Positions 843 through 23,691 of a DNA stretch of 32,000 bases are shown piece after piece. Under the pieces are notes generated by a model. It had not been told where the DNA came from. It ran no database searches and saw only the letters and a list, made by a program, of their open reading frames with translations. Numbering within the stretch: the stretch's first letter is position 1; each line of letters opens with the position of its first letter. Position numbers and translations under genes: made by a program. Where the stretch lies: positions 2,725,018 through 2,757,017 of the forward strand of contig JAXLVP010000001.1 of the NCBI GenBank assembly GCA_046328905.1, read 5' to 3'. Source of the stretch: Bdellovibrionota bacterium. Lineage in GTDB: Bacteria; Bdellovibrionota_C; UBA2361; SZUA-149; CAZDWZ01.

Positions 843-1991
843 GTGAGCTGTGATAATCCTTTTTCCATGCTTGCCTGGGATTTCCTGCTTTCGGTCGCCG
901 CTTATTTTGGTCTTCTTCTGCGGCCGTTTTTAGCCGGAGCGAACCTTACGACCGCCTGTCTGCTTCCGCTCGCAGTCGTGCTTTTCCGCCCGCTCGTGCT
1001 TTCACACTTTATCGCGTTAGTGGCGCTCGGCCTCTGCTTCGCAATGCGGGAGCCGACCTATTGCTTCTTCCCGCTGTTGGTCTTCGGCATTGCGCTCAGC
1101 ACAGCTTTCGCCGGGGATCGGCGAAGAGCGGTGCAGCTTCTCGCTCTGGCCGTCATCCTCGGTGGCTTCGTCCTGCTTCCGGTACCCCCACAAGAGAACG
1201 CGCGTCAGGCGTTACTTGCGCTATTTCGGGCGCCGGAACCGATTTCAAAACTTTTCGGCTGGACTGCCCCTGATTTTCAAGCGGTGCCGGAGCTTGCGGC
1301 CGCGATAGCCGGCCTCGTCATCTGCGCTTATCTATCAGGCCCCATCTTCCCCGAGCGCATGGGAATGTATCTCTCGACTTTTTTGTTGCTCGTCCTCTCG
1401 GTCAAGTCCGCGCCCTACCTCGTCCTCGCATTCAGCGTTGCGCTCTATGAGACGCTACGGCGCATCGCTGCCGAGACCGGTCCGACGTTGAAAGAGGAGC
1501 GGACTCTGCTCATGGCATTGTTCCTCTGCGCGGTTCCGTTTCTCTATCGTGTGCCGAGTGAATCTCTGGTCGAAGCGAGGATACGTGAAGCCCAACCGGC
1601 GCTCGCAGCCTACGCGGAGTCCATCCGCAGCTCCGGAGGACGCCTCCACCTCATGCACCGCCCAGGTCTGGGTGGCGCGCTCGCTCGTGCGGGACTTCCG
1701 GTATTTGCTGCCGCGGCGCCGTTAGGTGACGAGCTTTCTGCGCTTCCAAAGCTCGACGTGGCGAGACTCCAGGAAGCGATCGACGTTTTCACTCTGGGCG
1801 ATGGATGGGAGTCAATTCTCCAATCAGAGCAGATTAATGCAGTGATGCTCGAACGCCGCGAGCCGCTTGCCGGAGTGCTGATTTCCGGTCGACACTGGCG
1901 CGTGCTTAGCGAGAGCACGAGCTTTGAATACAGCGAGCGAAGCCTGAGCAAACAGACTTCTCTCGTTGTCCTTGTTCCTGGGGCTGACTAG
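843..1991 (+). CDS. Hypothetical polytopic membrane protein with a soluble C-terminal domain
   Basis: 382-aa ORF. The N-terminal ~220 aa contain multiple hydrophobic helices and the C-terminal ~150 aa are hydrophilic. The start is uncertain (GTG 843 or ATG 867; neither has a clear SD). The stop overlaps the hisS stop. Confidence 0.6.
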   Translation: MSCDNPFSMLAWDFLLSVAAYFGLLLRPFLAGANLTTACLLPLAVVLFRPLVLSHFIALVALGLCFAMREPTYCFFPLLVFGIALSTAFAGDRRRAVQLLALAVILGGFVLLPVPPQENARQALLALFRAPEPISKLFGWTAPDFQAVPELAAAIAGLVICAYLSGPIFPERMGMYLSTFLLLVLSVKSAPYLVLAFSVALYETLRRIAAETGPTLKEERTLLMALFLCAVPFLYRVPSESLVEARIREAQPALAAYAESIRSSGGRLHLMHRPGLGGALARAGLPVFAAAAPLGDELSALPKLDVARLQEAIDVFTLGDGWESILQSEQINAVMLERREPLAGVLISGRHWRVLSESTSFEYSERSLSKQTSLVVLVPGAD

Positions 1992-6659: not shown

Positions 6660-9074
6660 ATGACTCGCAGGAGTTCCTCGCAGCTCGCACAGTTCAAGTC
6701 CGCTGAGGCGCAGCTCGGAGCGCTCATCTCCGAGGATCGGATCGATGACGTCAAGCAGGACCTGCTGGACCAGATTCGACGCCTCTATCTCGTCTTCGGC
6801 ACGGGAGGAGAGGGCACCCGGTTGCCGGTGCCGGCCTCCGTCAACGCCAACCTGAAGACCAAGAAGGCGACCGACCTTCCCGACTCGCGCGACTACGCTG
6901 AGTTCGTGAAGCGGGTCCCGATCTATGACGTCCTCAGCTCGGACTGCCTCGCGGGACTCTGTCAGTTCGGCGAGGCCGGCAGGATCGCGAAAAAGTCGAT
7001 CCTCGACCAGATCCACCGCAACCTGGTCGCCCGGATCGCCGCTACCGAGTACCGCCCTCGTCGGCAGACACTGGGGCAGCACACGTACGACATCCACAAC
7101 GACTTCGTCGAGCTGCATCCGAAGTGGACCGCACCGCTGATCCAGAAGGCCATCGACGATCTCACTCAACGCGGTCTGTGGGCTCAGGCCATTCACGACG
7201 AGAAGTTCGGCCTGTGCCTGACGTCGGCCTCACTGACGAACGACGACATGCTGCGGCAGTGGTTGCTCGATTCGTGCATGGCCGGCCTGATTCAGCGCCT
7301 CATGGCGCCGCATCTCTGGCCGCGCAACCTGATCACGAACGCCGGGCTGCTCTGCACGTCGGCCAGCATCTTCGCGATGCTGAGCAGCGTCATCGACCCG
7401 GGGTGGTATCGAGACGGCGATGCCTCTCGCGGCATCGCGCATATCTTCCTTCCAACGTGCAAGAACTCGGACGACGAGGGTCTTCGCTGGAATGAAGAGC
7501 ACTGCGTTCCGGAGATCGACAGCATCAAGGAGGATCCGATCTGGTCCAACCGGCAGCGGCTCGAGTCTCAAGCCGTGCTGCTGTGCTGGCTCGTTCGAAC
7601 GATTAAGGCCGGTGCCTTCATGGGAGAGCGCCTGCCGCATCTCGCGGGTTTGGGCGCGCCGTGGGGCTTCCACTGGAGGAAGAACGGCGAGAACCTTCCG
7701 CCGAACAACGTCCTCCTGACGGAACGCCAGCGCTCCTATATCATCACCGGGATCCAGGTCGCGGCCGCCTATCTTCTCGCGGTCGAGTGGAACGGTGAGT
7801 GCTACGATTTCAACGCTCCGACCGCAAGCGCGTGGGAGGAGGCTCCGCTGAAAGGCGGTTGCGCCTCCGACACCTGCTTCATGGTGGACGCGATGTCGGA
7901 GCTGCGGGATCTGCTGTTCAACACCGCGTACGATTCGAACCTCACCGTTCAGGACGTGCGGCAGCGGCTGACGAACCTCGAGATCTGCCACCCTGAAAAG
8001 GGAACGGCAGCTCAGGCGATCGAGTATCATCCGTACGCGGACTTCCGCGATAAGGGTGTGCTCGACCGGTTCATCACTGCGGGCAGGCGCAAGATCTCGC
8101 AGATGGTGATCAAGCCGGTCGTCGACGCCGTTGACGGCAGCGCCCGGCCTCTGCCGAGCAACGTCAAGCAGTTCCCCGACCGTGGTCCTGACACTTCGCT
8201 CGTTGGGGCTGCGGCGTTCTACAGTCAGTTCGATCCGTATCTGGTTCGTGACGCGCGCATTCGTCTCAACATCGTCCTCTTCTGCGAAGCCCATCTCATG
8301 GATTCGCATCTCGATGACCGTTGCGGGATGAAGCGGTACGGCACCTTCCAGGTGCAGGACGGCAACGTCACCCGGATTCTGGTGGACAGCTACCTGAACT
8401 ACCAATTCAACCTCGGGCTGACGATCCCTGGGATGGTGGTTCCGTCATTCGCGCAGATGGTCGAGACTGAATACGCTTCGGTCCGCGAGTACTACGACGA
8501 GCGTGAGGCCGCAGGGACCTTGAGCCCTCGCGACATCCTCCTCCGTCAGGCGTACGACCGGTTCATTTCATCTGCCACGGACGATCAGCTCAAGCTCGAT
8601 CCCCGTAAGGACGCGACGGACTTCGCGGGTATGTCGGAACGCCAGCAGTTCTCGTTCCCGGATACGACAGCGCAATGGACCATCGGCGTCACCGCCGCCA
8701 TCATCGCTCTCGCCCGCGCGAAGCAGTCGCTGCTGACGCACCTTCAGACTCAAAAGAATGATCTCGCGCGAGCGAGGAAACTGCTCTTCGAGACCGAACG
8801 CGCGCTCACGCGGTTCATCAACCTGGCGCTCTCCACGATCGTCCAGAACATCGATGCCGACGGCAAGCCGGTCCTCCGTGCGGACGGGACGCCGCTTCCT
8901 GCCACCTACAACGTCATGGAAGCGTTTCAGTTCGTTCCAGACGCGGACGGGATCCCACGGCCGATCCCGGGCGACCACACTCTCCCGTGGTCCACGGCCC
9001 AGCTCTACTACGGGCTCCATCTCGCGCTCGAGGCCGCTCATATGGCGGTACCCGACGAGCACGAGGAGTTGTGA
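6660..9074 (+). CDS. Large cytoplasmic protein with a GH15-like (glucoamylase / phosphorylase-kinase alpha-beta-like) (alpha/alpha)6-barrel signature
   Basis: 804 aa with a strong SD (AAGGAAAGGAG, then 7 nt, then ATG). By eye, the five GH15 conserved regions occur in order: WYRDGDA (aa 249), NRQRLESQAVL (aa 297), SAWEEAP (W392-E393-E394, nt 7833-7841), GMKRYG...DSYLNY (aa 556) and VMEAFQ...LPWSTAQLYY (E754, nt 8919). There is no signal peptide. The ~190-aa N-terminus is unassigned. Confidence 0.6.
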   Translation: MTRRSSSQLAQFKSAEAQLGALISEDRIDDVKQDLLDQIRRLYLVFGTGGEGTRLPVPASVNANLKTKKATDLPDSRDYAEFVKRVPIYDVLSSDCLAGLCQFGEAGRIAKKSILDQIHRNLVARIAATEYRPRRQTLGQHTYDIHNDFVELHPKWTAPLIQKAIDDLTQRGLWAQAIHDEKFGLCLTSASLTNDDMLRQWLLDSCMAGLIQRLMAPHLWPRNLITNAGLLCTSASIFAMLSSVIDPGWYRDGDASRGIAHIFLPTCKNSDDEGLRWNEEHCVPEIDSIKEDPIWSNRQRLESQAVLLCWLVRTIKAGAFMGERLPHLAGLGAPWGFHWRKNGENLPPNNVLLTERQRSYIITGIQVAAAYLLAVEWNGECYDFNAPTASAWEEAPLKGGCASDTCFMVDAMSELRDLLFNTAYDSNLTVQDVRQRLTNLEICHPEKGTAAQAIEYHPYADFRDKGVLDRFITAGRRKISQMVIKPVVDAVDGSARPLPSNVKQFPDRGPDTSLVGAAAFYSQFDPYLVRDARIRLNIVLFCEAHLMDSHLDDRCGMKRYGTFQVQDGNVTRILVDSYLNYQFNLGLTIPGMVVPSFAQMVETEYASVREYYDEREAAGTLSPRDILLRQAYDRFISSATDDQLKLDPRKDATDFAGMSERQQFSFPDTTAQWTIGVTAAIIALARAKQSLLTHLQTQKNDLARARKLLFETERALTRFINLALSTIVQNIDADGKPVLRADGTPLPATYNVMEAFQFVPDADGIPRPIPGDHTLPWSTAQLYYGLHLALEAAHMAVPDEHEEL

Positions 9075-10750: not shown

Positions 10751-12187
10751 CTAGAAGCGCTTCCAGATGAACTGGTTGGTCACTTCGTGGTGGAACAGAA
10801 TTTCCTCTGTCTTCACCATCGTGCCGAGCTCACGCGGGCAACGATCTGCTGCAGCCTTCTTCAGATCCAAGAACTTCGCTTGGTTGTCTGCGCCGAGCAG
10901 CTCTTTCATGAAGCTGCTTTCGCCGAAGTAGGTCATAGCGTCGTAGATGTTGTCCGGCAGCTTCTTCGCACCTTCCTTTCTCGACTCGGAAGTGAGCTTC
11001 TCCTTCATCGGGCCATTCAAGCCTGCGCTGAACAGAGAGAAGAGCACGAGATATGGGTTTGCATCCGGAGCGACCGTGCGAACTTCCACACGCGCCGACT
11101 TCTCGTTTCCGAGCGGGATACGAACCATTGCTGTCCGGTTAACCGCGGACGACATGATTTGATTCGGCGCTTCGAAGTGCGGATCGAGGCGGCGATACGA
11201 GTTGACGCTCGAGTTCATGATCAAGCAAAGGTCGTTTGCGTTGTTCAGGATTCGATCGACGAACTCCCATGCAGTCGGTGACAGGCTGTCCTGTCCCTTG
11301 GCATCGAACATCAGGTTCCGGCCCTGCCGGGACAGGGAGATGTTCGTGTGCATCCCGCTTCCGTTGATGTTTGCAACCGGCTTCGGCAGGAAGCAAGCGG
11401 TCATACCCATGTCTGCAGCGATCTGGCGCGCGAGCAGCTTGTAGACCTGGATTTGGTCAGCCGCGAGCAGAGCGCTCGTGTACGAGTAGTTGAGCTCGAA
11501 CTGCGACGGAGCAACTTCCGGGTGGTCCTTCTCGTTCTGGAAGCCCATCGCGCGTTGCGCTTCCGCGAACTTGTCGATGAACATCCGCAGAGGATCCTTC
11601 GGCAGCGAGCTGTAGTAACCGCCGTTACAGACGAACTCAAAGCCTGCTCGGGAGTTGTAGTTCTGCTCCGCATTGACGCCGGCGAAGAGGAAGCCTTCGA
11701 TTTCCACTGCGGCGTTCAGGACGGTCTGATCCTTTGCGTAGAGTTGGTCGCAGAGGTTCTTGAGCAATCCACGCATATCGGAAGCGTAGGTCGAACCATC
11801 GCGATCTTTGATGTGTGCGAAAACGAGGACTTTTCCTGGTCCGAACACATCGCTCGGCAGCCAACGGAATGAGCCCCAGTCGATTTCGAGACGGAGGTCC
11901 GATTCCTTGACGACCGTGAATCCTCGGATCGAAGATCCATCGAACGTCAGGTTCTCGTAGGACTTGACCAAGAACTTCTTGTCATAGTCCAGCATGTGGA
12001 ACCGCCCTTCGAGATCCGAGAAGCAGACGGTGATCGCCTTCAGCTGCTTTTGATCCGTGAGGTACTTGAGGAGCTCTTCTTTCAGCTTGTCATCCGGAGT
12101 GCGATTGAGAACTTTCTCCTTCGCCTTCAGATTCAGCTCTTCGAGCTCATCGTACGTGATCTCTAAAAAATTCTTAATGGTCGTCAT
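10751..12187 (-). CDS. glnA: Glutamine synthetase (type I-like)
   Basis: 478 aa with a beta-grasp N-domain (VCFSDLEGRFHMLDY) and catalytic-domain motifs (NGSGMHTNISL, RIPLGNEKSARVEVR). Confidence 0.9.
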   Translation of the reverse strand: MTTIKNFLEITYDELEELNLKAKEKVLNRTPDDKLKEELLKYLTDQKQLKAITVCFSDLEGRFHMLDYDKKFLVKSYENLTFDGSSIRGFTVVKESDLRLEIDWGSFRWLPSDVFGPGKVLVFAHIKDRDGSTYASDMRGLLKNLCDQLYAKDQTVLNAAVEIEGFLFAGVNAEQNYNSRAGFEFVCNGGYYSSLPKDPLRMFIDKFAEAQRAMGFQNEKDHPEVAPSQFELNYSYTSALLAADQIQVYKLLARQIAADMGMTACFLPKPVANINGSGMHTNISLSRQGRNLMFDAKGQDSLSPTAWEFVDRILNNANDLCLIMNSSVNSYRRLDPHFEAPNQIMSSAVNRTAMVRIPLGNEKSARVEVRTVAPDANPYLVLFSLFSAGLNGPMKEKLTSESRKEGAKKLPDNIYDAMTYFGESSFMKELLGADNQAKFLDLKKAAADRCPRELGTMVKTEEILFHHEVTNQFIWKRF

Positions 12188-12365: not shown

Positions 12366-13334
12366 TTACTCGAGGTAGAGATCTCGTGGGACCCAGTTGA
12401 AATATGAGCGGCGAACCATTGCGGTTTGGAAGTTCCGTACCAGACGTGAAAATTCGCTCCGGATCTCTTCGATAATGGCGTTGTACTGGCCGTAATCCGG
12501 AACTTCCATTTCGAGCTCGATTGTACAGTCTCCGAGCTGTTGAATGTAATACGTAATGTAAGGATTGGATGCGCAGTATTCGCGCAGCCGGGCCTGCAGA
12601 TTGAGGTCGTAGCTACGGAGAAACAGCTGCGCTTTGAAAAAGAGCATGTTCAATTTACGGAGATCGAGCTCCGTCCGGTAACCGGTGATGATTCCTTCGC
12701 GCTCGAGGCGCTCTATTCGATATTTCACGATAGCGGCGGTGCTTTCGATTGTTCGCGCGATGTCGACCACCGGTCTTCTCGAATCGCCGGAGAGAATCTT
12801 CAAGATTTCGTAATCCGTTGCGTCGATTCGAGACGACCCAGGGCTGCCGCCGACGACAAACGAATCCTTCCCTTTGCCTGCAAGGTAGTTCTTGCGGAAC
12901 ATCAAGATCTCGACCAGCGTATACATGCCAAAGTTCAGCACGATTTCGTTGTAGGCGGAAAGAATGGTGCTGTGAATCTCGTAGAACTCTTTCGCGTTTC
13001 TCGCGAAGACGGCAATCATCAGATCCCAGCCTCCGTCGCAGAGCGCGATCCAATACACTCGGGGATGCGAGCGAAGATAGGTGACGAACTCCGCCACGCG
13101 GGTTTTATCGTTTTCGAGGCGTAAGTAGGTCTTATACAGCGTGAAGCCAAGCTTATAGATATTCACCGATGTCGTGAAACCGCGAACTATCTTTTGCTCG
13201 ATCAGCCGCTCGAGACGGTATTCCACCCGGTCGCGACCCTGACGCAGCTTCCGGGCGAGATCGGAGGTGGTCTGGCGCGAGTTGTGGTCCAGCTCGAACA
13301 GAATTTTGCGATCCAGACGGTCTAGCTCGAGCAT
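12366..13334 (-). CDS. Tandem (duplicated) Lrp/AsnC-family transcriptional regulator
   Basis: Two consecutive HTH-plus-RAM-like modules: LDRLDRKILFELDHNSRQTTSDLARKL...RLIEQKIVRGF and IDATDYEILKILSGDSRRPVVDIARTI...RLEREGIITGY. I moved the start to ATG 13334, which has AAGGAGG 6 nt upstream, giving 322 aa. Confidence 0.85.
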   Translation of the reverse strand: MLELDRLDRKILFELDHNSRQTTSDLARKLRQGRDRVEYRLERLIEQKIVRGFTTSVNIYKLGFTLYKTYLRLENDKTRVAEFVTYLRSHPRVYWIALCDGGWDLMIAVFARNAKEFYEIHSTILSAYNEIVLNFGMYTLVEILMFRKNYLAGKGKDSFVVGGSPGSSRIDATDYEILKILSGDSRRPVVDIARTIESTAAIVKYRIERLEREGIITGYRTELDLRKLNMLFFKAQLFLRSYDLNLQARLREYCASNPYITYYIQQLGDCTIELEMEVPDYGQYNAIIEEIRSEFSRLVRNFQTAMVRRSYFNWVPRDLYLE

Positions 13335-13634
13335 GATGTGCCTCCTTTCGCAGTCCTCATGTGAACGCGAACGTACCGCGTGTATTTTTGCGGATGGCAA
13401 AAGGCCCTCTTTCGTGCCGATATCCGCGAATACTTCCTCCTTTCATCGCATATTTCGGCAAATTTGGCGACGCTGTTGCCGATTATTCGAATCGCCGTTT
13501 ACGGTGACCATGCTGGCCAAGCCGTTGAAATTTGACATCGCTAGTTTCGAGTAGAGCTCTCGACCTTCCCTGAACGCATCGTCATGCGCTCAGGGGTGGA
13601 AAAGGCAAAGGTTTCGTTACGAAAGGTGTCCGTC

Positions 13635-14219
13635 ATGAACACGGTACAAAAATCAGAGGCTCCGGCGCTGACTCCGCAGCGGCCTCCTCATGTTTTGTTG
13701 GGGGTGACCGGCTCGACGGCGGCGTCGAAAGCGCAGGCAATCGCGCTCGCTTTGCTGCGAAGCGGTTGCGAAGTGCGTGCGGCGATGACCCCGAGCTCAC
13801 AGCAATTCATCCAACCGATGCTGCTCGCAAGCGTGCTGAAAGATCCTGTCTACAGCACGCTCTGGAGCCCGACTCAGGCCGGTGAAACCCATGTAGAGTG
13901 GGCACGCTGGGCGGACGCGATGGTCATTGCCCCGGCGACAGCGACGTGTATCGCCGACCTCTGGCTCGGCGCGTACAATAATCCTGTAACTCTCCTCGCT
14001 GCGAACGTTCCGCCGGACCGGCTGTTTATCGCTCCCGGAATGGCGCAACAGATGTGGGATCAGCCCGCAGTCCGGCGAAATGTAGCGCAGCTTACGGAGT
14101 GGGGCGTTCGGTTTCTCGGGCCCGTGACGGGCCGAGTTGCGTCCGGAGCCGAAGGGCAACGGCTGATGGAGCCTCGCGACATTGCGGCTGCTGTGTGTGA
14201 GCTCCGGTGCGAGCTTTGA
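13635..14219 (+). CDS. HFCD-family flavoprotein, CoaC-like (phosphopantothenoylcysteine decarboxylase-like), stand-alone
   Basis: 194 aa from ATG 13635 (AAAGGTG upstream). Motifs: VLLGVTGSTAASKA (FMN-binding fold), conserved His (ETHVEWARWAD) and PGMAQQMW. Two residues are atypical for a PPC decarboxylase (see findings), so I give no gene symbol. Confidence 0.75.
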   Translation: MNTVQKSEAPALTPQRPPHVLLGVTGSTAASKAQAIALALLRSGCEVRAAMTPSSQQFIQPMLLASVLKDPVYSTLWSPTQAGETHVEWARWADAMVIAPATATCIADLWLGAYNNPVTLLAANVPPDRLFIAPGMAQQMWDQPAVRRNVAQLTEWGVRFLGPVTGRVASGAEGQRLMEPRDIAAAVCELRCEL

Positions 14220-14229
14220 TGCGGTTCTG

Positions 14230-14270
14230 ACGGCGTGCCGAGTATCTCGACACGCCGTTTTCTCGGTTTC
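14230..14270 (+). terminator. Rho-independent terminator after the CoaC-like gene
   Basis: ACGGCGTG (14230-14237) pairs perfectly with CACGCCGT (14251-14258). An inner CGAG/CTCG extension is present. The stem is followed by TTTCTCGGTTTC and begins 11 nt after the stop codon. Confidence 0.6.
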
Positions 14271-14411
14271 TCCTTTCCGCCCTAGAAGTCTTCCATCCGT
14301 CTGCGTTCGGCGGCTGAATGCCTACTCAGCATTCAGGTTCCGAAGGTTTCGGCGACACTCCCCGATCGGCGTACGATTCGGATGGGTCGCTCTCAGATGG
14401 AGGTTTTTGTC

Positions 14412-15221
14412 ATGTCCACTCGTAAAAGCGGTTGGCGTTCGGTAGTTACAGCGGGAAGCACGGTCGGTCGACTCGACACGCTGCGCGGTTCCGAGCAGAT
14501 AGAGTATCTTGCCGGCGAACCATTCGAACGGCGAATCGTGTTTGATTCGCAGAATCCGTTCAAAGGGAAGCTGGGCCTGTACATCGCGCAAGAGCTGTAT
14601 CGTCGCGGTGGGGATGTCGTTCTCATCGCTCGCAAGGACCTGCTCCTCGGTCAAAAAATCGAGCTTCCGGATGAATGTATCCGTCCCTTCTACACGTTCG
14701 ATGAGCTCGAGCGTGAGTTGCCGAAGACCCTGACCGAGACCGATCCTGACCTGGTCTTCATGGCCGCGGCGGTGTCGGACTACGTCCCGGTGTCAATTAA
14801 TGAAGTCTCGGATGCCGAGCGCGAAGGAAAGATCTCCAGCTCGCTGCCGGAGCTCAACGTTCGATATCGTGCGACGCCGAAGCTCATCGACGGAATTCGG
14901 CCGAAGATCCACCCGGTTTCTTCGCTCGTGGGGTTCAAGTTGGTCGTCGGCCTCAGCGAAGCCGCGATGCGCGAGGCTGCACTCACGCAAATGGCGCGAG
15001 CACATTCCAATTTTTGCGTCGTGAACGACTTCCGAGAGATTTCCGCCGATGGCTCCGTGCATCCGCTCAGAGTGTTCTTCCGCTCCGGCCACATGGAGAA
15101 GCTGGTCGGCACAAAGGCGGAGGTCGCACGTCAGCTCGTCGAGCTCGTCGACAACGACTTGGAAGACACCTACATGCAGGTGGGAGGACGCGGTTCTGAC
15201 GCGGCAACGGGTCCCGCGTAA
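14412..15221 (+). CDS. CoaB-like phosphopantothenate--cysteine ligase, stand-alone
   Basis: 269 aa from ATG 14412 (GGAGG 8 nt upstream). Motifs: VVTAGST..RLDTLR, KGKLG, AAAVSDY, GKISS and LVGFKL. A ~16-aa insertion interrupts the N-terminal nucleotide-binding motif. Confidence 0.75.
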   Translation: MSTRKSGWRSVVTAGSTVGRLDTLRGSEQIEYLAGEPFERRIVFDSQNPFKGKLGLYIAQELYRRGGDVVLIARKDLLLGQKIELPDECIRPFYTFDELERELPKTLTETDPDLVFMAAAVSDYVPVSINEVSDAEREGKISSSLPELNVRYRATPKLIDGIRPKIHPVSSLVGFKLVVGLSEAAMREAALTQMARAHSNFCVVNDFREISADGSVHPLRVFFRSGHMEKLVGTKAEVARQLVELVDNDLEDTYMQVGGRGSDAATGPA

Positions 15222-15243
15222 ACGAAAGGTTGCGTGAACCGCA

Positions 15244-15267
15244 CGGCGCACTCGCCCGAGTGCGCCG
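15244..15267 (+). other. Strong GC-rich hairpin between the coaB-like gene and the fusion gene, with no U-tract
   Basis: CGGCGCACTCG-cc-CGAGTGCGCCG, a perfect 11-nt inverted repeat. It is followed by the palindrome CGTTCGAACG (15278-15287). No T-run follows. Confidence 0.45.
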
Positions 15268-15339
15268 ATCCTTCAAGCGTTCGAACGGAACGTTTGACGG
15301 ATCGATAGAAGGTTTTCTCCTTTTCAGAAAGGCATTACC

Positions 15340-16641
15340 ATGAACACCAAAGGCAATTCGGTGTTGGTTGTAAAGTTAGGCACCATTGAGCTCCCTGATT
15401 CAGTGCTCGCGGTCGCTCGGAAGCTGGGTGAGGCAGTCGTTATTGATGTGGCAAACATCGAGGCCCACCGCAACGGCTACGATTATGCAGTGCTCTTCGG
15501 AGACCCGGCACGGCTCGACGCCATCGACGCAGTGCTCGCACTCAAACCCGCACGCCCATTCTTCATCTGGTGGACGTGCGAAGAGCTTCGGGGCGCGGAC
15601 CTGCAGAGGTTGACTCAACGGCTTCGATTGAATGTCCTGATCTCCGCCAATGGTCAGAAGGGCGTCTCTCTGACAACACCGGAGGGCGGATTCATTCAAT
15701 TCGGGACGGAGATTGAAAAGCTGTGCGAGTTCCTCGAGCGGAGAAGAGCCGTCTCATGGTTCCGGACAGAGTCCGACGTGAGCCTCGTCTCCCCGGTTCC
15801 GCTCGAAGCGCGAGAGAAGGCCGACGAGCTGCTCCGATTTGCACATTCGACCCGGCTGCTGTGCAATCTCAATGGAAATGTCGCCGTTCGGCTCCAGCCG
15901 ACGCGCGCCGGCGCTACGAGCTTTCTCGTCTCTCCGCGTGGAGTGAACAAGGCCGCGCTCTTGGCGGCAGATTTGCTCAAAGTGGCGGTCGATATCGAGA
16001 ATCGCGTGGTTCGTTGCCCAGACATCAGCCGGAAATCGTCAATCGACACGGGTGTTCTCGGAACCCTGTTCTCACGATATCCGGAGCTCGCGTTTGTGCT
16101 GCATTTCCATCCGACGGAGGCGATTGTGCTCCCGGTTGCAAACACCGATTTTCCGTTCCCGTGCGGTACTCTGGAAGAGGCACAGGAGCTTGGTCGAGCG
16201 ATCGACCGCTCCGAGCGTGACAGCTTCCTGATTGAGATGGTCCACCACGGATTTCTTCTTGGTGGCACTGAGGCATTCCGGGGGCGCTTGCTCGCGGAAT
16301 GGGCCGAGACGCAAGATGAGTATGCAGATCATCTTCGAGAGATCGACGAATTCGATAAGCTCGCTGAATCGGTGCAGAACCCGATCTTCGTCGGCACCAA
16401 ACTCCTCGGAGTGCTCAATATGCACCGCGACGGCTGGGGGTCAATTTACGTGCGAAAAGCCGAGCGCGGGCGAAAGCTCGGTGCTCAGCTTGCGAGCATT
16501 GCGGCGAATCGTGGCCTGACGATTGGCGCGCACGATCTGTGTCGAGTTGCTGCGTTCTATCGGCGACTCGGTTGGCAGGAAAGCGGACGTGACGGTCGGA
16601 TGACGTACTTCGCTCCTCCTCCGGTTGCTCGACACGGTTGA
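15340..16641 (+). CDS. Three-part fusion protein: unknown N-domain, class II aldolase/adducin-like domain and a short GNAT-like C-terminus
   Basis: 433 aa (GAAAGG SD). Aldolase-II-like core at aa ~157-312: GNVAVRL, FLVSPRGV, SSID, VLHFHP and MVHHGFLLGG, so the His triad is retained. C-terminal GNAT motif A-like segment: IYVRKAERGRKLGAQLA...AFYRRLGW. Residues 1-150 are unassigned. Confidence 0.7.
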   Translation: MNTKGNSVLVVKLGTIELPDSVLAVARKLGEAVVIDVANIEAHRNGYDYAVLFGDPARLDAIDAVLALKPARPFFIWWTCEELRGADLQRLTQRLRLNVLISANGQKGVSLTTPEGGFIQFGTEIEKLCEFLERRRAVSWFRTESDVSLVSPVPLEAREKADELLRFAHSTRLLCNLNGNVAVRLQPTRAGATSFLVSPRGVNKAALLAADLLKVAVDIENRVVRCPDISRKSSIDTGVLGTLFSRYPELAFVLHFHPTEAIVLPVANTDFPFPCGTLEEAQELGRAIDRSERDSFLIEMVHHGFLLGGTEAFRGRLLAEWAETQDEYADHLREIDEFDKLAESVQNPIFVGTKLLGVLNMHRDGWGSIYVRKAERGRKLGAQLASIAANRGLTIGAHDLCRVAAFYRRLGWQESGRDGRMTYFAPPPVARHG

Positions 16642-16774
16642 TGAAATGATCCAGCGGCGTGGGCGGCGCTTTATCCGTCCACATTCCTTTTTTCAACGGC
16701 GAACAGAGACTGGTCAGCGAACCCCATTCGCTGACCACCGTTTCCCTATTCAGGTTTTCCAGAAAGGAACTGCC

Positions 16775-17551
16775 ATGTGTCTGTCATTCGTGGTGCGCGA
16801 TCGTATCCCCGACTTGCCGCTCCTCCTTCTTTTCAACCGGGACGAGACGTATGCTCGTCCGGCAGAACCCCTCCACCGCTGGCCGGATGAAACCCCAGCC
16901 ATCTTCGCCGGGCGGGACGGTGAGATGGGTGGAACCTGGGCCGGAACCAATGCGGAGGGCTATTTTGCGATGCTGCTCTTTGTTCGGGAGCCGCGCAGGG
17001 AAGTTACTCACAGCAGGCGTCGGGGTGAGATCGTTCCCGATTTTCTCCGACGCAAGAGTGAACCGGACGCGTTCGTGCATGAGATGAGCAGTCGGGCGAA
17101 TGAGTACCTGCACTTCAACTTGATCGCTGGTCGAGTGGGCAATGTGCTCCATTACTCCAACCGAACCGATGAGGCGACCCCGCTCGGCCACGGTGTCCAT
17201 GGCATCTCGAATGGAGATCTCGGCGAACCGTGGTTCAAAGTGCTGCGCGGAACTGAAGCAATCGAGCGCCAGCTCGAGAGCGCTCCGCTTGATTTTGAGG
17301 GCTACTTCAGGATTTTGAACGACAGGGAAGAGGCGCCACCGGAAGAGGTTCAACACACAGGCCTTCCCTTCGACTACGAACGAATCCGCTCCCCGCTCTT
17401 TGTCATGACACCGACATACGGCACTCGAACCAGCACGGTAGTTGCGTTCCGACGGTCAGGCGAGGTTCTGCTCGAAGAGCGAAGCTACGATTCGGGCGGC
17501 AGACGCTTCCATACCGTGCGCATGGCGGTTGGAGTAGGTAAGGATGCATGA
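16775..17551 (+). CDS. NRDE-family protein (DUF833; TANGO2 homolog family)
   Basis: 258 aa from ATG 16775 (AAAGGA upstream). The N-terminal MCLSF and the family signature LLLFNRDE are present. The track ORF is over-extended at its 5' end. Confidence 0.82.
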   Translation: MCLSFVVRDRIPDLPLLLLFNRDETYARPAEPLHRWPDETPAIFAGRDGEMGGTWAGTNAEGYFAMLLFVREPRREVTHSRRRGEIVPDFLRRKSEPDAFVHEMSSRANEYLHFNLIAGRVGNVLHYSNRTDEATPLGHGVHGISNGDLGEPWFKVLRGTEAIERQLESAPLDFEGYFRILNDREEAPPEEVQHTGLPFDYERIRSPLFVMTPTYGTRTSTVVAFRRSGEVLLEERSYDSGGRRFHTVRMAVGVGKDA

Positions 17552-18612: not shown

Positions 18613-20046
18613 TTAATCCTTTTTCTTCAGCTTCGGTCCGTCTTTCGAATCTTCGACAAGAAAACCGAGCTCTGCAATCTTCGCGCGCAACACATCCGCC
18701 TGTTGCCAGTTGCGGGTCTTTCGAGCTTCATCTCGCTCTGCGGCTAGGGCTTGAACTGCTTCCGGTATATTTTCGCTCGCCTCGGTCCAGTTTGCAACAC
18801 CTAGTCCGAGCACCGAGTCCATTCGCAAAAACAGCCCGAGCTTCTCCGCGGGGGTGACAGCGTCGTCGCGGAGCATCTCATGGAGCACCGCGAGGGCCTT
18901 CGGCATTCCCAGATCGTTTGTAATCTCGCGGTCAAAGGCACTGAGAATCTCGAGCGCGCGGGGAGACGACGCCTCAGAATGAGGATTCGCTCCCAGCTCC
19001 CGCTTCCAGCCGAAGACCGCTTGTTTCATCCGTTTCAGTGACGAGGCCGCTGACTCTACGGCCTGCCAGCTCCACGAGAGCTCGTTCCGGTAGCTACCGC
19101 TGAAGCAGAACAGTCGGTAACTGATCGGATCGATGCTTTTCTCCGTGAGTCTGTCGAGAGTGAGAAAGCCGCCGGTCGACTTCGACATCTTGTCCGCACC
19201 AACGACGAGGAAGCCGCCGTGCATCCATAGCTTTGCAAAGGGCTGCCCCGTCGCGGTCTCGCTTTGTGCGATCTCGTTCGTGTGGTGGACTGGGATGTGG
19301 TCGATTCCGCCGCAGTGGATGTCGAACGACTCGCCGAGATACTTCATGGACATCGCGCTGCATTCGATGTGCCATCCCGGATATCCGCGGCCCCACGGAG
19401 AGTCCCACTGCATCTCTTGCTTCTCGAATTTGGACTTGGTGAACCACAGCGCGAAGTCCAGAGGGCTTCGTTTCTTCGAATCCACTTCGATGCGCGCGCC
19501 TGATTTGAGCGAATCCAGGTCGAGACCCGCGAGCTTTCCGTAATCCGGGGACTTGGAAACATCGAAGTAGACGTTCCCGCCGCTAACGTATGCGGCTCCG
19601 CGCTCCTCCAGCCGCTTAATCAGATCGATCATCTCAGTGATGTGCTCGGTTGCTTTGCAGACGATGTCCGGGCGGGAAATGTGAAGCTCCGCGCAATGAT
19701 CGAAGAAAATGTTCGTATAAAACTCGGCGATCTCTGCTGAGGTCTTTCCCTCACGCTTCGTGGCGACGAGCATTTTGTCTTCGCCTTCGTCGGCGTCTGA
19801 GACGAGGTGTCCGACGTCCGTAATGTTCATCACATGACGAACGTTGTACCCGGCGTAACGCAATACGCGAACGAGCACGTCCTCGAAGATGTAGGTTCGG
19901 AGATTGCCGATATGCTGATAATTGTAGACCGTTGGCCCGCAGCAATAGAGTTGGACTTCGCCCGGCGTTTTTGGCTCCAGCCGTTCAATCTTGCGGGTCA
20001 GCGTGTTGAAAAGAGATACGTCTTGCGGGTTTCGCGCACCGGCCAT
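18613..20046 (-). CDS. cysS: Cysteine--tRNA ligase
   Basis: 477 aa with class I aaRS motifs: a HIGN (HIGH-like) motif in YCCGPTVYNYQHIGNLRTY, KMSKS, and FNTLTR at the N-terminus. Confidence 0.95.
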   Translation of the reverse strand: MAGARNPQDVSLFNTLTRKIERLEPKTPGEVQLYCCGPTVYNYQHIGNLRTYIFEDVLVRVLRYAGYNVRHVMNITDVGHLVSDADEGEDKMLVATKREGKTSAEIAEFYTNIFFDHCAELHISRPDIVCKATEHITEMIDLIKRLEERGAAYVSGGNVYFDVSKSPDYGKLAGLDLDSLKSGARIEVDSKKRSPLDFALWFTKSKFEKQEMQWDSPWGRGYPGWHIECSAMSMKYLGESFDIHCGGIDHIPVHHTNEIAQSETATGQPFAKLWMHGGFLVVGADKMSKSTGGFLTLDRLTEKSIDPISYRLFCFSGSYRNELSWSWQAVESAASSLKRMKQAVFGWKRELGANPHSEASSPRALEILSAFDREITNDLGMPKALAVLHEMLRDDAVTPAEKLGLFLRMDSVLGLGVANWTEASENIPEAVQALAAERDEARKTRNWQQADVLRAKIAELGFLVEDSKDGPKLKKKD

Positions 20047-22476: not shown

Positions 22477-23691
22477 ATGACGATAATCCTCTCTGAAAAA
22501 TTAAAGGCCTCGGGAGCAGATGCGCAGGCCGCATCCCTCACGCTTCCGAGAAATGGCGACGGTGGGTTGCAGGGGGAGATCGCTCTTCGGCATCTGTCAC
22601 CATCCGGCGAATTCATGCACTCAGTTCGTCTCGCCCCGGGGATGATCACCGTGATTCAAGAAACCGGTCACGAACCGGTAAGAAACGCGCTCATCGGCAA
22701 CGACAACAATGCGCGTATCGATCTGCGGGCAGGCAACAAGGAGCTCCATCGCTCCGAGATCTTTCATGTCGGCGATACTTCCCGATTGGTCAAAGAATCA
22801 ACCGTGATGAGCGCGCTTCTCGCATCGGGGGTTCCGGCTCCGGAAGCACCGGAGCTTCTCCAAAAGCTCGGTCTCCAAAGCGCAAGCGAGCTTCGTCCCC
22901 GCGACCTGAACCCTGTCCAACTGAAACGTCTTGCGATCGGGTGCTCTGCGTATGCGCGTGCACGGCTGCTTTTGATCGATCGGCCTTTTGCAGGCTCCGA
23001 CCCGGCGTCCGTTGAGAGAATTGCTCAGCTGCTCCTTCAGGTGGGAGAGACGAACGCGCGCGCGCTGATCATCACCGGCGAGTCTCAGATCCCGTCAGCG
23101 CTGCGCAATCATCCTCGAGTGCTGATACAAGATCCCGCTGCGAACAACCAGAACCTCAGTATTCCGGCGCGCGACGATCTCAGTGCTCAGGCTGCGCGGA
23201 ACTTGCTTCACGCGAGTGTGCAAGCGCCGCGAGTCGGTGAGCCGATAGTGACACGTCCACAGAGCATCTATTTCAGTCCGCGTCAGGGATATGCCGAAAC
23301 GGTACATTCTGAGGCGATTGCGAATCCGAACTCCGAGCTTCGTCGTTTGGGCGGTGGTGCCGGTGTGAGTCAGCTTTCCACCGAAGCGCGGCAAAGCGCT
23401 CGCAAAGACGGTATCGAGGATTCCCCGCTCAATGAGTACAAGCGGCAGAAGACGCGCCCGCTGACGAAGGTGGGCATGCTCACACGAACGAAGCAGGGCT
23501 CGACCTACAAGACCGCTTACGATCTCTTCCGAAAGCTACGCGCACGTATTTCGGCGCGACCGATGGAGCTCGATATCCCGCCCGCTGCACGCCTGCTCGA
23601 GCAGGGGAAGAAGCGCGATCTCCGAGTCGGAACGATGATCTTCGTCGTCTCGGTCTTAGCGATCTGCGCGCTCGTCTGGATGTCACGTTAG
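22477..23691 (+). CDS. Tail-anchored protein with a degenerate, probably non-catalytic ABC-ATPase fold
   Basis: 404 aa. Residues ~40-205 align by eye to an ABC nucleotide-binding domain, but Walker A is QETGHEPV, the signature is LNPVQ, Walker B is LLLIDRP and the H-loop is ITGES. The middle is low-complexity. The C-terminal TM segment is VGTMIFVVSVLAICALVWM. There is no clear SD. Confidence 0.65.
   Translation: MTIILSEKLKASGADAQAASLTLPRNGDGGLQGEIALRHLSPSGEFMHSVRLAPGMITVIQETGHEPVRNALIGNDNNARIDLRAGNKELHRSEIFHVGDTSRLVKESTVMSALLASGVPAPEAPELLQKLGLQSASELRPRDLNPVQLKRLAIGCSAYARARLLLIDRPFAGSDPASVERIAQLLLQVGETNARALIITGESQIPSALRNHPRVLIQDPAANNQNLSIPARDDLSAQAARNLLHASVQAPRVGEPIVTRPQSIYFSPRQGYAETVHSEAIANPNSELRRLGGGAGVSQLSTEARQSARKDGIEDSPLNEYKRQKTRPLTKVGMLTRTKQGSTYKTAYDLFRKLRARISARPMELDIPPAARLLEQGKKRDLRVGTMIFVVSVLAICALVWMSR

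What the first reader, a model, noticed from the sequence alone, without database searches (positions are those of the whole stretch)
13635..17551. Co-directional block linking divergent CoaC-like and CoaB-like genes, an aldolase-GNAT fusion and an NRDE/TANGO2 homolog: a candidate CoA/thiol-related module
Four consecutive plus-strand genes form a block:
- An HFCD flavoprotein with non-canonical active-site residues.
- A CoaB-like ligase with a ~16-aa insertion (GSEQIEYLAGEPFERR) splitting the N-terminal motif, and a PFKGKLG variant of the NxSSGKMG loop.
- A 433-aa fusion whose C-terminus is an acyl-CoA-using GNAT-like module.
- An NRDE-family protein, the bacterial counterpart of eukaryotic TANGO2.

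The molecular function of TANGO2 is unsettled. Published work has linked it to haem trafficking and to lipid and acyl-CoA metabolism, and pantothenate (the CoA precursor) has been reported to rescue TANGO2-deficiency phenotypes in model systems. A bacterial neighbourhood that places an NRDE gene next to pantothenate-to-CoA-type enzymes and an acyltransferase would be independent genomic-context support for a CoA-related role. It could also mark an uncharacterised pathway that makes or recycles a pantetheine- or cysteine-derived metabolite. The genes are separated by 118-192-nt structured spacers, so they may be a regulon-like cluster rather than one operon.
Basis: inference. Interest (0 to 1): 0.72.

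Follow-up and report, generated by a model that had tools for sequence, protein, structure and literature searches.

The report
TANGO2-like gene in CoaB/CoaC-like operon
A small group of Bdellovibrio-like bacteria keeps a TANGO2-family gene in one regulated operon with altered copies of the two coenzyme-A enzymes that attach and decarboxylate cysteine, which gives a tractable bacterial system for asking what this disease-linked protein family acts on, although most bacterial TANGO2 relatives show no such link.

Summary
Four co-directional genes encode an HFCD flavoprotein, a CoaB-fold ligase, a 433-aa class-II-aldolase/GNAT-like protein and an NRDE/TANGO2 protein.

The block is a conserved module, not a chance adjacency. 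All 7 related NRDE loci examined have an HFCD gene beside the NRDE gene, usually with the DFP gene and the regulator. Flanks differ, gene order is shuffled, and GC ranges from 45 to 60%.

The link is confined to one NRDE clade. None of 78 other NRDE loci from many phyla has a CoaB-, CoaC- or aldolase-like gene within 8 kb.

The enzymes are specialised paralogues, not housekeeping CoaBC:
- Every module HFCD keeps the catalytic His but has Asn→Ala/Ser and Cys→Ser.
- The ligase keeps Asn210 and Lys289 and groups with a large uncharacterised family of DFP–aldolase–GNAT(–NUDIX) fusion proteins.
- The module's NRDE clade replaces a predicted catalytic Asn (human Asn75) with Phe.

Best reading: an operon for a cysteine-derived thiol or enethiol amide. 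The substrate is unknown. I could not check whether the genome also carries a canonical coaBC.

The parts
12366..13334 (-). Tandem (two-unit) Lrp/AsnC-type regulator, transcribed divergently from the enzyme genes. The ORF could extend to a TTG at 13400.
   Evidence: It has two HTH_AsnC/HTH_24 domains plus AsnC_trans_reg. It is co-conserved with the module at 47-67% identity in L100, L002, L010 and L011. In L010 and L011 it is the best-conserved module protein. It is also present in L102 and L103.
13401..13634 (.). Divergent intergenic region between the regulator and the first enzyme gene; presumed promoter and operator region.
   Evidence: This is inferred from position only. One weak sigma-70-like match lies on the minus strand at 13510-13482. 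Folding is not unusual (z -0.8).
13635..14219 (+). HFCD flavoprotein, a CoaC/PPC-decarboxylase-like paralogue. It keeps the catalytic His but has Ala in place of the motif Asn and Ser in place of the clamp Cys.
   Evidence: PF02441, E 2e-22. Best solved-structure matches are AtHAL3a (77 bits), human PPCDC and M. smegmatis CoaBC, ahead of MrsD and EpiD. Using E. coli numbering, H75 is kept, N125 is Ala or Ser, and C158 is Ser in 7 of 7 module orthologs.
14220..14411 (+). Spacer 1, carrying two hairpins. The first (about 14229-14258) is followed by a T-run and looks like a terminator.
   Evidence: Fold z-scores are -2.0 and -2.2. The sequence is not repeated elsewhere in the window and is not shared with the orthologous modules.
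14412..15221 (+). CoaB/PPCS-fold NTP-dependent ligase paralogue, with a clade-specific 17-23-aa insertion in the N-terminal nucleotide-binding motif.
   Evidence: PF04127, E 2e-16, far below the CoaB equivalog cut-offs (65 vs 265 bits). The AF2 model has pLDDT 87.6, and all 50 listed Foldseek PDB hits are PPCS/CoaB, with target-normalised TM-score up to 0.79. E. coli N210 and K289 equivalents are conserved. It is closer to the DFP domains fused to aldolase-GNAT (80-119 bits) than to E. coli CoaB (20-30 bits).
15222..15339 (+). Spacer 2, carrying two near-perfect hairpins.
   Evidence: Fold z-score -5.5; 0 of 200 shuffles fold as well.
15340..16641 (+). Three-part protein. Residues 1-~135 are a degenerate DFP remnant. 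Residues ~155-310 are a class-II-aldolase-fold domain with an intact metal site. Residues ~340-430 are a GNAT-like domain.
   Evidence: Aldolase_II E 7e-9; Acetyltransf_7 at 23 bits is below the cut-off. Residues 82-428 align to residues 151-494 of the DFP-aldolase fusion P0003. Invariant or near-invariant across the family are K232, S234, D236, H255-x-H257, H303-G304, C275, E280 and R376. The family profile matches AraD at 1e-7 to 4e-15. The AF2 model of this protein was poor (pLDDT 48.6).
16642..16774 (+). Spacer 3, carrying two hairpins. The first (16659-16682) is followed by a T-run.
   Evidence: z -3.5.
16775..17551 (+). NRDE/TANGO2-family protein (Cys-Ntn-hydrolase fold). It belongs to a distinct clade that has Phe69 where other family members have Asn.
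   Evidence: PF05742, E 6e-53. Human TANGO2 (8sv7), E 5e-22. C2, N21-R22-D23-E24, S145-N146, W153 and K155 are conserved. F69 is Phe in 9 of 9 clade members and Asn in 78 of 78 others. The clade is recovered in a neighbour-joining tree.

Best explanation
The block is a conserved operon-type module under a dedicated Lrp/AsnC-type regulator. It is confined to a small clade of Bdellovibrionota-like bacteria. It is built from specialised paralogues of the two coenzyme-A enzymes that handle cysteine, together with a TANGO2-family protein. It most likely makes or turns over a small cysteine-derived thiol or enethiol amide, in the manner of pantetheine or a low-molecular-weight thiol. It is not the housekeeping CoA pathway.

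Proposed steps, all inferred from conserved residues and family chemistry:
1. The CoaB-fold ligase activates a carboxylate with a nucleotide triphosphate and couples it to an amine, probably cysteine. The acid is unknown. Sugar-type partners (aldolase-fold domain, TrmB and ROK neighbours in relatives) hint at a phospho-sugar acid or a pantothenate-like acid.
2. The HFCD flavoprotein oxidises the thiol with FMN through the retained His. It lacks the Cys needed to reduce the intermediate and the motif Asn. Alone it should therefore stop at an oxidised enethiol or thioaldehyde, act without decarboxylation, or need a partner subunit.
3. The aldolase-fold/GNAT-like protein is the usual fusion partner of this ligase clade. 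It contributes a metal-dependent step and probably binds CoA or acyl-CoA.
4. The NRDE protein uses its N-terminal Cys to cleave, transfer or trap the resulting amide or thiol species. Its Asn-to-Phe change suggests a pocket adapted to this particular substrate.
For: Conserved linkage:
- The full five-gene module occurs in the window, L002 and L100. The four-gene version (regulator, DFP, HFCD, NRDE) occurs in L010 and L011, and DFP-HFCD-NRDE on the P0009 contig (whether its cut upstream gene is the regulator was not determined). HFCD-NRDE pairs sit on cut contigs L005-L009.
- DFP and HFCD swap order between instances, the flanks are unrelated, protein identities fall to 35-47%, and GC ranges from 45 to 60%.
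- Genes overlap or lie 3-48 nt apart in relatives.
- The regulator is co-conserved at 47-67% identity.

Not housekeeping:
- In HFCD, Asn125 is Ala/Ser and Cys158 is Ser in 7 of 7 orthologs. PMC9604783 states that the Asn is needed for oxidation/decarboxylation and the Cys for reduction.
- Equivalog scores lie far below cut-offs.
- The ligase groups with the aldolase-fused DFP clade, not with E. coli CoaB.

Ligase probably active:
- It has the CoaB fold and keeps N210 and K289.

Rosetta-stone link between ligase and aldolase-GNAT:
- Of 70 family representatives, 58 have DFP, 70 Aldolase_II, 33 NUDIX and 30 a GNAT match.

NRDE:
- Cys2, NRDE, Asn146 and Lys155 are kept.
- The family has a Cys-Ntn-hydrolase fold according to PMC13044924.
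Against: - No substrate or product is known, and nothing here identifies the acid or proves that cysteine is the amine.
- Both HFCD and NRDE have lost predicted catalytic residues, so either could be non-catalytic (a binding or scaffold protein).
- Module composition varies. The aldolase-GNAT gene is absent from L010, L011 and the P0009 contig. L102 has regulator-DFP-aldolase with no HFCD in between. DFP-like genes at 50-61% identity stand alone in L101 and L104.
- The DFP-aldolase-GNAT-NUDIX fusion in L094 has no HFCD or NRDE within 10 kb.
- I could not check whether these genomes also have a canonical coaBC.
- The model of the aldolase-GNAT protein was poor.
Confidence: 0.55

Rival explanations
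1. The DFP-like and HFCD genes are this lineage's ordinary, split and fast-evolving CoaB and CoaC. On this reading the NRDE protein sits in the true CoA biosynthesis operon, for example salvaging or proofreading phosphopantetheine intermediates.
For: - Both proteins are most similar to genuine PPCS and PPCDC structures.
- The HFCD clamp region is PPCDC-like rather than LanD-like.
- NCBI's annotation labels the DFP-like protein 'phosphopantothenoylcysteine decarboxylase'.
- No canonical coaBC lies in the 32-kb window, and I could not search the rest of the genome.
Against: - The Asn and Cys that PPCDC needs are replaced in every ortholog. A Cys-to-Ser change abolishes function in yeast Cab3 (PMC9604783).
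- Scores are a third or less of the CoaB and stand-alone CoaC equivalog cut-offs, and about half of the CoaBC cut-off for the HFCD.
- The ligase belongs to the aldolase-fused DFP clade.
- Close DFP-like relatives occur without any HFCD neighbour.
- A dedicated divergent regulator is unusual for an essential cofactor step; this point is inference.
Confidence: 0.12
2. The module is a peptide or natural-product tailoring cluster. The HFCD would act like LanD enzymes (EpiD, MrsD), which oxidatively decarboxylate a C-terminal cysteine and release an enethiol. The other enzymes would build or process the scaffold.
For: - Like LanD enzymes, the HFCD lacks the reducing Cys, so an enethiol product is expected.
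- The Ntn-hydrolase fold includes an acyltransferase of penicillin biosynthesis, as compared in PMC13044924.
Against: - The HFCD scores higher against PPC decarboxylases than against MrsD or EpiD (77-61 vs 50-27 bits).
- It also lacks the Asn that LanD enzymes keep; the LanD side of that comparison rests on my own knowledge.
- There is no conserved small ORF ending in Cys in the spacers.
- No lanthionine synthetase, NRPS, transporter or protease is conserved next to the module.
Confidence: 0.08
3. The HFCD and NRDE proteins of this clade are no longer enzymes. They would act as binding, sensing or regulatory subunits, in the way that yeast Hal3 and Vhs3, which retain only the His, moonlight as phosphatase regulators and work only inside a heterotrimer. 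The module's chemistry would then rest on the ligase alone or lie elsewhere.
For: - HFCD has lost 2 of 3 catalytic residues, the same pattern as Hal3 and Vhs3 (PMC9604783).
- The NRDE clade has lost the Asn that aligns with human Asn75 and BSH Asn81.
- Human TANGO2 is reported as an acyl-CoA-binding protein without acyltransferase activity (PMC11867700).
Against: - The replacements are strictly conserved (Ser, Ala/Ser, Phe) rather than drifting.
- The His, the rest of the PxM..MW motif, the clamp, Cys2, NRDE, Asn146 and Lys155 all remain conserved. That pattern suits altered chemistry better than loss of function.
Confidence: 0.15
4. The adjacency is inherited synteny without functional meaning.
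For: - All instances come from one fairly narrow group of uncultured bacteria.
- 78 other NRDE loci show only lineage-specific synteny.
Against: - Adjacency survives gene-order shuffling, complete turnover of the flanks, identities down to 35-47% and a 15-point GC spread.
- Overlapping genes suggest translational coupling.
- The regulator is co-conserved.
- The ligase and the aldolase-GNAT protein are independently fused in more than 50 protein clusters.
Confidence: 0.05

Closest known systems
Bacterial CoaBC (Dfp): phosphopantothenate-cysteine ligase plus phosphopantothenoylcysteine decarboxylase
   Same: It has the same two folds, placed side by side. In the ligase, the nucleotide-binding motif, Asn210 and Lys289 are kept. 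In the flavoprotein, the flavin-binding fold, the catalytic His and the PPCDC-like clamp loop are kept.
   Different: - The genes are separate and their order is variable.
- The ligase carries a 17-23-aa insertion and a changed SSGK loop.
- The flavoprotein lacks the motif Asn and the reducing Cys.
- Scores are far below the equivalog cut-offs.
- The module has its own regulator and sits with aldolase-GNAT and NRDE genes.
AtHAL3a C175S mutant (PDB 1MVL) and yeast Hal3/Vhs3
   Same: At the clamp position the window protein has the same residue (Ser) as the engineered C175S plant enzyme, which was its top PDB match. Like Hal3 and Vhs3, it retains the His but not the Cys or the intact PxMNxxMW motif.
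   Different: The state is natural and strictly conserved in a bacterial clade. There is no evidence here for a Cab3-like partner subunit that could supply the missing residues.
Human TANGO2 and Shewanella HtpA (NRDE family, PF05742)
   Same: It is a clear family member (E 6e-53; E 5e-22 to human TANGO2). Cys2, the NRDE motif, and the equivalents of Asn157 and Lys166 are present.
   Different: It belongs to a separate clade with Phe in place of the Asn that aligns with human Asn75, and Phe in place of Ala just before the NRDE motif. It is the only clade found here with CoaB/CoaC-like neighbours. No heme or cytochrome c genes are nearby.
Uncharacterised DFP-aldolase II-GNAT(-NUDIX) fusion proteins, e.g. 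MBI4433976.1 from Candidatus Uhrbacteria
   Same: The window's 433-aa protein shares the aldolase-GNAT core and its conserved residues. The window's stand-alone ligase is closest to the DFP domain of these fusions.
   Different: In the window the ligase is a separate gene, and the 433-aa protein keeps only a degenerate DFP remnant. It has no NUDIX domain. The fusions examined in context lack HFCD and NRDE neighbours.
Low-molecular-weight thiol pathways: mycothiol MshC/MshD/Mca and bacillithiol BshC/Bca (a comparison of logic only, from my own knowledge)
   Same: The logic is the same: a cysteine ligase, a GNAT acetyltransferase and an amidase acting on a cysteine-containing amide with a sugar-derived part.
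   Different: None of the proteins is homologous to these. The ligase here has the CoaB fold, not the CysRS fold, and the amidase candidate has an Ntn fold. The presence of an HFCD enzyme has no counterpart in those pathways.

Membership tests
PPC decarboxylase (CoaC / HFCD) | Flavoprotein (PF02441) fold above the Pfam cut-off | tested here: met
   79.8 bits against a cut-off of 22.7. Matches AtHAL3a, human PPCDC and CoaBC in the PDB.
PPC decarboxylase (CoaC / HFCD) | Catalytic His (E. coli His75, AtHAL3a His90) | tested here: met
   His is present in 7 of 7 module orthologs.
PPC decarboxylase (CoaC / HFCD) | Asn of the PxMNxxMW motif (E. coli Asn125, AtHAL3a Asn142) | tested here: not met
   Ala in the window (PGMAQQMW). 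Ala or Ser in 7 of 7 orthologs. Its role is taken from PMC9604783.
PPC decarboxylase (CoaC / HFCD) | Redox-active clamp Cys (E. coli Cys158, AtHAL3a Cys175) needed to reduce the enethiol | tested here: not met
   Ser in 7 of 7 orthologs.
PPC decarboxylase (CoaC / HFCD) | NCBIfam equivalog score | tested here: not met
   TIGR02113: 89.9 against 261.4. TIGR00521: 123.4 against 219.7.
LanD-type peptidyl-cysteine decarboxylase (EpiD/MrsD) | Closest similarity to LanD enzymes, with a precursor peptide or lanthipeptide genes nearby | tested here: not met
   MrsD 49.5 and EpiD 27-30 bits, against 77 for AtHAL3a. No conserved Cys-terminal small ORF. No such neighbours.
Phosphopantothenate-cysteine ligase (CoaB / PPCS) | PPCS fold | tested here: met
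   AF2 model pLDDT 87.6. All 50 listed Foldseek PDB hits are PPCS, with target-normalised TM-score up to 0.79.
Phosphopantothenate-cysteine ligase (CoaB / PPCS) | Catalytic Asn210 and Lys289 (E. coli numbering; their roles are from my own knowledge of Kupke's mutational work) | tested here: met
   Both are conserved in all stand-alone and fused DFP sequences aligned.
Phosphopantothenate-cysteine ligase (CoaB / PPCS) | Contiguous N-terminal nucleotide-binding motif (GGT.E.ID.VR.I.N.SSGK.G) and equivalog-level score | tested here: not met
   The motif is split by a 17-23-aa insertion, and SSGK is replaced by PFKGK. Scores are 56-65 bits against cut-offs of 217-265.
Phosphopantothenate-cysteine ligase (CoaB / PPCS) | Uses 4'-phosphopantothenate and cysteine as substrates | not testable with these tools
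   This needs enzyme assays. I found no residue list for substrate binding in the papers I read.
Class II aldolase/adducin family | Pfam domain above its cut-off, and the metal-site residues (HxH plus a third His; Asp/Glu in the KPSxD/E motif) | tested here: met
   36.3 bits against 22.2. K232, S234, D236, H255-x-H257 and H303-G304 are invariant or near-invariant. Aligned to AraD over the same motifs.
GNAT acyltransferase | Pfam GNAT model above its cut-off | tested here: inconclusive
   The window protein scores 23.0 against 27. In the family, 30 of 70 members match Acetyltransf_7 and 14 match Acetyltransf_10, with best E 3e-7. PDB GNAT matches are weak (YjaB, E 0.03). The RGRKLGA stretch fits the CoA-binding motif by eye.
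NRDE / TANGO2 family (PF05742) | Pfam domain, N-terminal Cys2 and the NRDE motif | tested here: met
   181 bits against 22.6. C2, N21, R22, D23 and E24 are present.
NRDE / TANGO2 family (PF05742) | Full predicted Ntn catalytic set of human TANGO2 (Cys2, Asn25, Arg26, Asp27, Asn75, Asn157, Lys166; PMC13044924) | tested here: not met
   All are present except the Asn75 equivalent. That position is Phe69 in 9 of 9 clade members and Asn in 78 of 78 other bacterial NRDEs.
DFP-aldolase II-GNAT(-NUDIX) fusion family (uncharacterised) | Aldolase-GNAT core with the family's conserved residues | tested here: met
   35% identity over 357 aligned positions (window residues 82-428) to P0003. It is the top hit of the family profile.
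DFP-aldolase II-GNAT(-NUDIX) fusion family (uncharacterised) | An intact DFP domain in the same polypeptide | tested here: not met
   Only a remnant remains: no Pfam DFP hit, and weak similarity to the C-terminal half of fused DFP domains (E 1e-5).

The most novel reading that the evidence does not exclude
The operon encodes an unknown pathway. A CoaB-type ligase and a naturally 'reduction-dead' CoaC-type flavoenzyme would make an N-acyl-aminoethenethiol or related pantetheine-like thiol amide. The TANGO2-family protein would then hydrolyse, transfer or trap it through its N-terminal cysteine. If that chemistry reflects the ancestral activity of the family, pantetheine- or CoA-derived amides would be the substrate class of TANGO2. 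That would give a rationale for the vitamin-B5 responsiveness of TANGO2 deficiency. No paper in the searched library links TANGO2 to pantetheinase or cysteamine chemistry.
Probability: 0.15. Interest if true: 0.85.

Novelty: new variant of a known kind. Interest (0 to 1): 0.6.

Why it matters
The molecular function of TANGO2 is contested (heme carrier, acyl-CoA binder or Ntn hydrolase), and the question is clinically relevant. This operon is, as far as the searched literature shows, the first conserved bacterial gene context that ties a TANGO2-family protein to defined enzymes. Those enzymes are of the type that build the cysteamine end of coenzyme A. It offers a four-protein system that could be reconstituted to find a real substrate.

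The work also exposes a large uncharacterised family of CoaB-aldolase-GNAT(-NUDIX) fusion proteins: 107 clusters at E <= 1e-30, including candidate-phyla bacteria. In addition, it reveals a natural CoaC variant that should stop at the enethiol.

The caveat is important. The link holds for one small clade with an altered active site, not for NRDE proteins in general.

Tried and rejected
- The first NRDE alignment (A1) was too diverse for the locus scan, which returned an error. A smaller alignment (A2) worked.
- Rfam and tRNA scans of the window found nothing.
- The AF2 model of the 433-aa protein, built from a 4-sequence alignment, was unusable (pLDDT 48.6). No fold search was run on it.
- The metagenome scan with the aldolase family found only 4 loci, none with HFCD or NRDE.
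- PADLOC gave no defence-system match for the enzymes.
- The RiPP idea found no support: there is no conserved Cys-terminal peptide in the spacers.
- The spacers are not a repeat family and are not shared with orthologous modules.
- The NUDIX domain of the fusions could not be assigned to a subfamily. Matches were generic (Ap4A hydrolase, MutT, DIPP), and CoA pyrophosphatase was only one of many.
- The DFP-rhodanese 'fusion' (P0024) has a signal- or TM-like segment between its two parts, and its contigs end just after the gene. I did not build on it.
- I considered the regulator as a siroheme-decarboxylase-like enzyme, which would give a link to heme. I rejected this because only a weak HTH-level match to AhbB was found (E 0.002).
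- I could not find a list of the phosphopantothenate-binding residues of CoaB in the papers I read.
- I could not search the source genome for a canonical coaBC. The window's MAG is not in the genome collection, and the single scan of that collection had been used.

Full report
**What is there**

The window comes from a Bdellovibrionota MAG; the proteins match NCBI entries on a 3.26-Mb contig. Four plus-strand genes occupy 13635-17551:

- An HFCD flavoprotein (PF02441, E 2e-22).
- A DFP/CoaB-like protein (PF04127, E 2e-16).
- A 433-aa protein with a class II aldolase domain (E 7e-9) and a sub-threshold GNAT match (23.0 against 27 bits).
- An NRDE/TANGO2 protein (E 6e-53) that begins MC....

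A tandem Lrp/AsnC regulator is transcribed divergently just upstream (12366-13334). The rest of the window is ordinary chromosomal context: HisRS, PhoH, a GlnA-like gene, CysRS, a TrpE-G fusion and transketolase. It contains no canonical coaBC. The spacers between the genes fold better than shuffled sequence (z -2.0 to -5.5), and two hairpins are followed by T-runs.

**Is the adjacency conserved?**

Yes, within a clade.

- The 433-aa protein has few close relatives, but one at 44% identity lies in L002. That locus has regulator, DFP, HFCD, aldolase-like and TANGO2 genes with different flanks, and DFP and HFCD in the opposite order.
- L100 (ligase 64% identical) has the same five genes in the window's order, with gaps of only 3-48 nt.
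- The closest NRDE relatives show DFP-HFCD-NRDE (P0009 contig), or HFCD-NRDE overlapping by about 30 nt on contigs cut upstream (L005-L009).
- A scan of one genome per species with an NRDE alignment returned 395 relatives. I analysed the best 80.
- Only the two best, L010 and L011 (the latter an uncultured Bdellovibrionales), carry regulator | DFP-HFCD-NRDE.
- The other 78 come from Syntrophomonas, Bacteroidota, Alteromonadaceae, Pseudomonas, Bacilli and others. They have no DFP, HFCD or aldolase homolog within 8 kb.
- Clustering their neighbours showed only lineage-specific synteny, with nothing CoA-related.
- In a neighbour-joining tree, the eight module-linked NRDEs plus one of unknown context form a single clade that excludes all 78 others. 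Of 40 bootstraps, 25 gave a clade with only such members.

Across modules, identities to the window are 47-67% for the regulator, 51-69% for HFCD, 35-64% for the ligase and 38-48% for NRDE. GC ranges from 45 to 60%.

**Are these the ordinary CoA enzymes?**

The evidence says no.

- Aligned to E. coli Dfp and AtHAL3a, all seven module HFCDs keep the catalytic His. They have Ala or Ser for the Asn of PxMNxxMW, and Ser for the clamp Cys.
- According to PMC9604783, the His, Asn and Met of the motif are needed for oxidation and decarboxylation, and the Cys for reducing the enethiol. A Cys-to-Ser change inactivates yeast Cab3.
- The window protein's best PDB match is the engineered C175S plant enzyme.
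- The ligase is a true PPCS fold. Its AF2 model has pLDDT 87.6, and all 50 listed Foldseek hits are PPCS. It keeps Asn210 and Lys289.
- Its nucleotide-binding motif is split by a 17-23-aa insertion, predicted as a beta-hairpin. It scores 56-65 bits against equivalog cut-offs of 217-265.
- It is much closer to DFP domains fused to aldolase-GNAT proteins (80-119 bits) than to E. coli CoaB (20-30 bits).

I could not search the rest of the genome for a canonical coaBC. The housekeeping reading is therefore unlikely but not excluded.

**The 433-aa protein and its family**

- Residues 82-428 align with residues 151-494 of P0003, a protein that has an intact DFP domain in front of the aldolase domain. 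The window protein's N-terminus is therefore a degenerate DFP remnant.
- An exhaustive profile search found 1051 relatives, 107 of them at E <= 1e-30.
- Of 70 top representatives, 70 have Aldolase_II, 58 have DFP, 33 have NUDIX and 30 match a GNAT model, with best E 3e-7.
- Some come from candidate-phyla bacteria such as Candidatus Uhrbacteria, and sources name them only generically.
- The conserved KxSxD, HxH and HG residues match the metal site of AraD-type enzymes.
- This is fusion evidence that this ligase clade works with the aldolase-GNAT unit.
- The fusions seen in context have TrmB-type regulators or housekeeping neighbours, and no HFCD or NRDE.

Module composition varies. The aldolase-GNAT gene is missing from L010, L011 and the P0009 contig. 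L102 has regulator-DFP-aldolase without an HFCD in between. DFP-like genes stand alone in L101 and L104.

**The NRDE protein**

It aligns to human TANGO2 at E 5e-22. Cys2, the NRDE motif, and the equivalents of Asn157 and Lys166 are conserved. These residues were proposed as an Ntn-hydrolase active site in PMC13044924. At the position of human Asn75, however, all nine clade members have Phe, while all 78 other bacterial NRDEs have Asn. The residue before the NRDE motif is Phe instead of Ala. The module-linked clade therefore has its own pocket.

**Mechanism**

Shown:
- a conserved, regulator-linked module;
- retained ligase residues;
- a flavoenzyme that lacks the residues for completing the PPCDC cycle;
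- an intact metal site in the aldolase-fold domain;
- a Cys-Ntn-type protein with one altered catalytic position.

Inferred:
- the ligase joins an unknown acid to cysteine;
- the flavoenzyme oxidises the thiol and stops at an enethiol or thioaldehyde, or needs a partner;
- the aldolase-GNAT protein adds a metal-dependent step and binds CoA;
- the NRDE protein cleaves, transfers or traps the product.

The logic resembles pantetheine formation and low-molecular-weight thiol pathways. The substrate is unknown.

**Literature**

Papers on TANGO2 describe heme binding by bacterial HtpA (PMC10470608), acyl-CoA binding that requires the NRDE motif (PMC11867700) and an Ntn-hydrolase-like crystal structure (PMC13044924). 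None reports a CoaB/CoaC-like neighbourhood. No paper in the library links TANGO2 with pantetheinase or cysteamine.

**Verdict**

This is a real, previously undescribed module that links one TANGO2 clade to CoaB/CoaC-type chemistry. It is not CoA biosynthesis itself, and it is not a property of the NRDE family as a whole.

Noticed in passing
Related proteins P0028-P0133; loci L003, L004, L091, L092, L093, L094: There is a large uncharacterised family of single polypeptides that combine a CoaB-like DFP domain, a class II aldolase domain, a GNAT-like domain and often a C-terminal NUDIX domain. It has 107 clusters at E <= 1e-30. Of 70 representatives checked, 58 have DFP and 33 have NUDIX. Some are from candidate-phyla bacteria (Candidatus Uhrbacteria). 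Its function appears to be unknown.
   Followed up: partly
window 16979-16981 (NRDE codon 69); alignment of 93 NRDE proteins: Phe69 is present in all 9 module-clade NRDE proteins, where all 78 other bacterial NRDEs have Asn. The position aligns with human TANGO2 Asn75, a predicted catalytic residue next to the pathogenic T74P site.
   Followed up: yes
window 14220-14411, 15222-15339, 16642-16774; L002 5616-5998, 6755-6887, 7464-7639, 8852-9074; L100 3075-3412: The intergenic spacers of the module are unusually structured in the window and in L002, but are almost absent from L100. The 338-nt regulator-HFCD intergenic region of L100 folds very strongly (z -6.3 against mononucleotide shuffles). 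The spacers share no sequence and gave no Rfam match in the window. Their role (terminators, processing sites, attenuators) is unknown.
   Followed up: partly
L095-L099 (protein P0024): A DFP-like protein 45% identical to the window's is called as a 437-aa fusion with a rhodanese domain, downstream of a ROK-family gene. A hydrophobic, signal- or TM-like segment separates the two parts, and the contigs end just after the gene. It is unclear whether this is a real sulfur-transfer fusion or two genes read as one.
   Followed up: partly
window 10751-12187 (-): A glutamine-synthetase-like gene lies next to the regulator. It scores well below the GlnA equivalog cut-off (274 against 429 bits), so it may be a gamma-glutamyl-amine ligase paralogue. 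It is not conserved beside the module in other loci.
   Followed up: partly
window 18613-20046 (-): The cysteinyl-tRNA synthetase gene lies 1 kb downstream of the module, on the opposite strand. This fits a cysteine theme, but it is not found next to the module in L002, L100, L010 or L011, so it is probably coincidental.
   Followed up: partly
L092 263-712, 723-1505, 1642-1962; L003 125-901, 2725-3342: The DFP-aldolase-GNAT fusions in low-GC contigs sit next to a divergent TrmB-type regulator. In L092 there is also a 106-aa ORF overlapping the fusion's start and a separate GNAT gene. L003 has a 206-aa downstream ORF with no Pfam match.
   Followed up: no
window 843-1991, 6660-9074, 22477-23691, 29061-30671: Four long ORFs (382, 804, 404 and 536 aa) have no Pfam match at E <= 1e-5.
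   Followed up: no
L023, L035, L036, L058, L062, L068, L069, L076, L078, L082: In Pseudomonas and related Gammaproteobacteria (Marinobacterium), the NRDE gene sits in a conserved stretch. By eye, the neighbours look like thymidylate synthase, a PtsP-like protein and a Nudix (RppH-like) gene. These assignments were not checked against a domain library.
   Followed up: no
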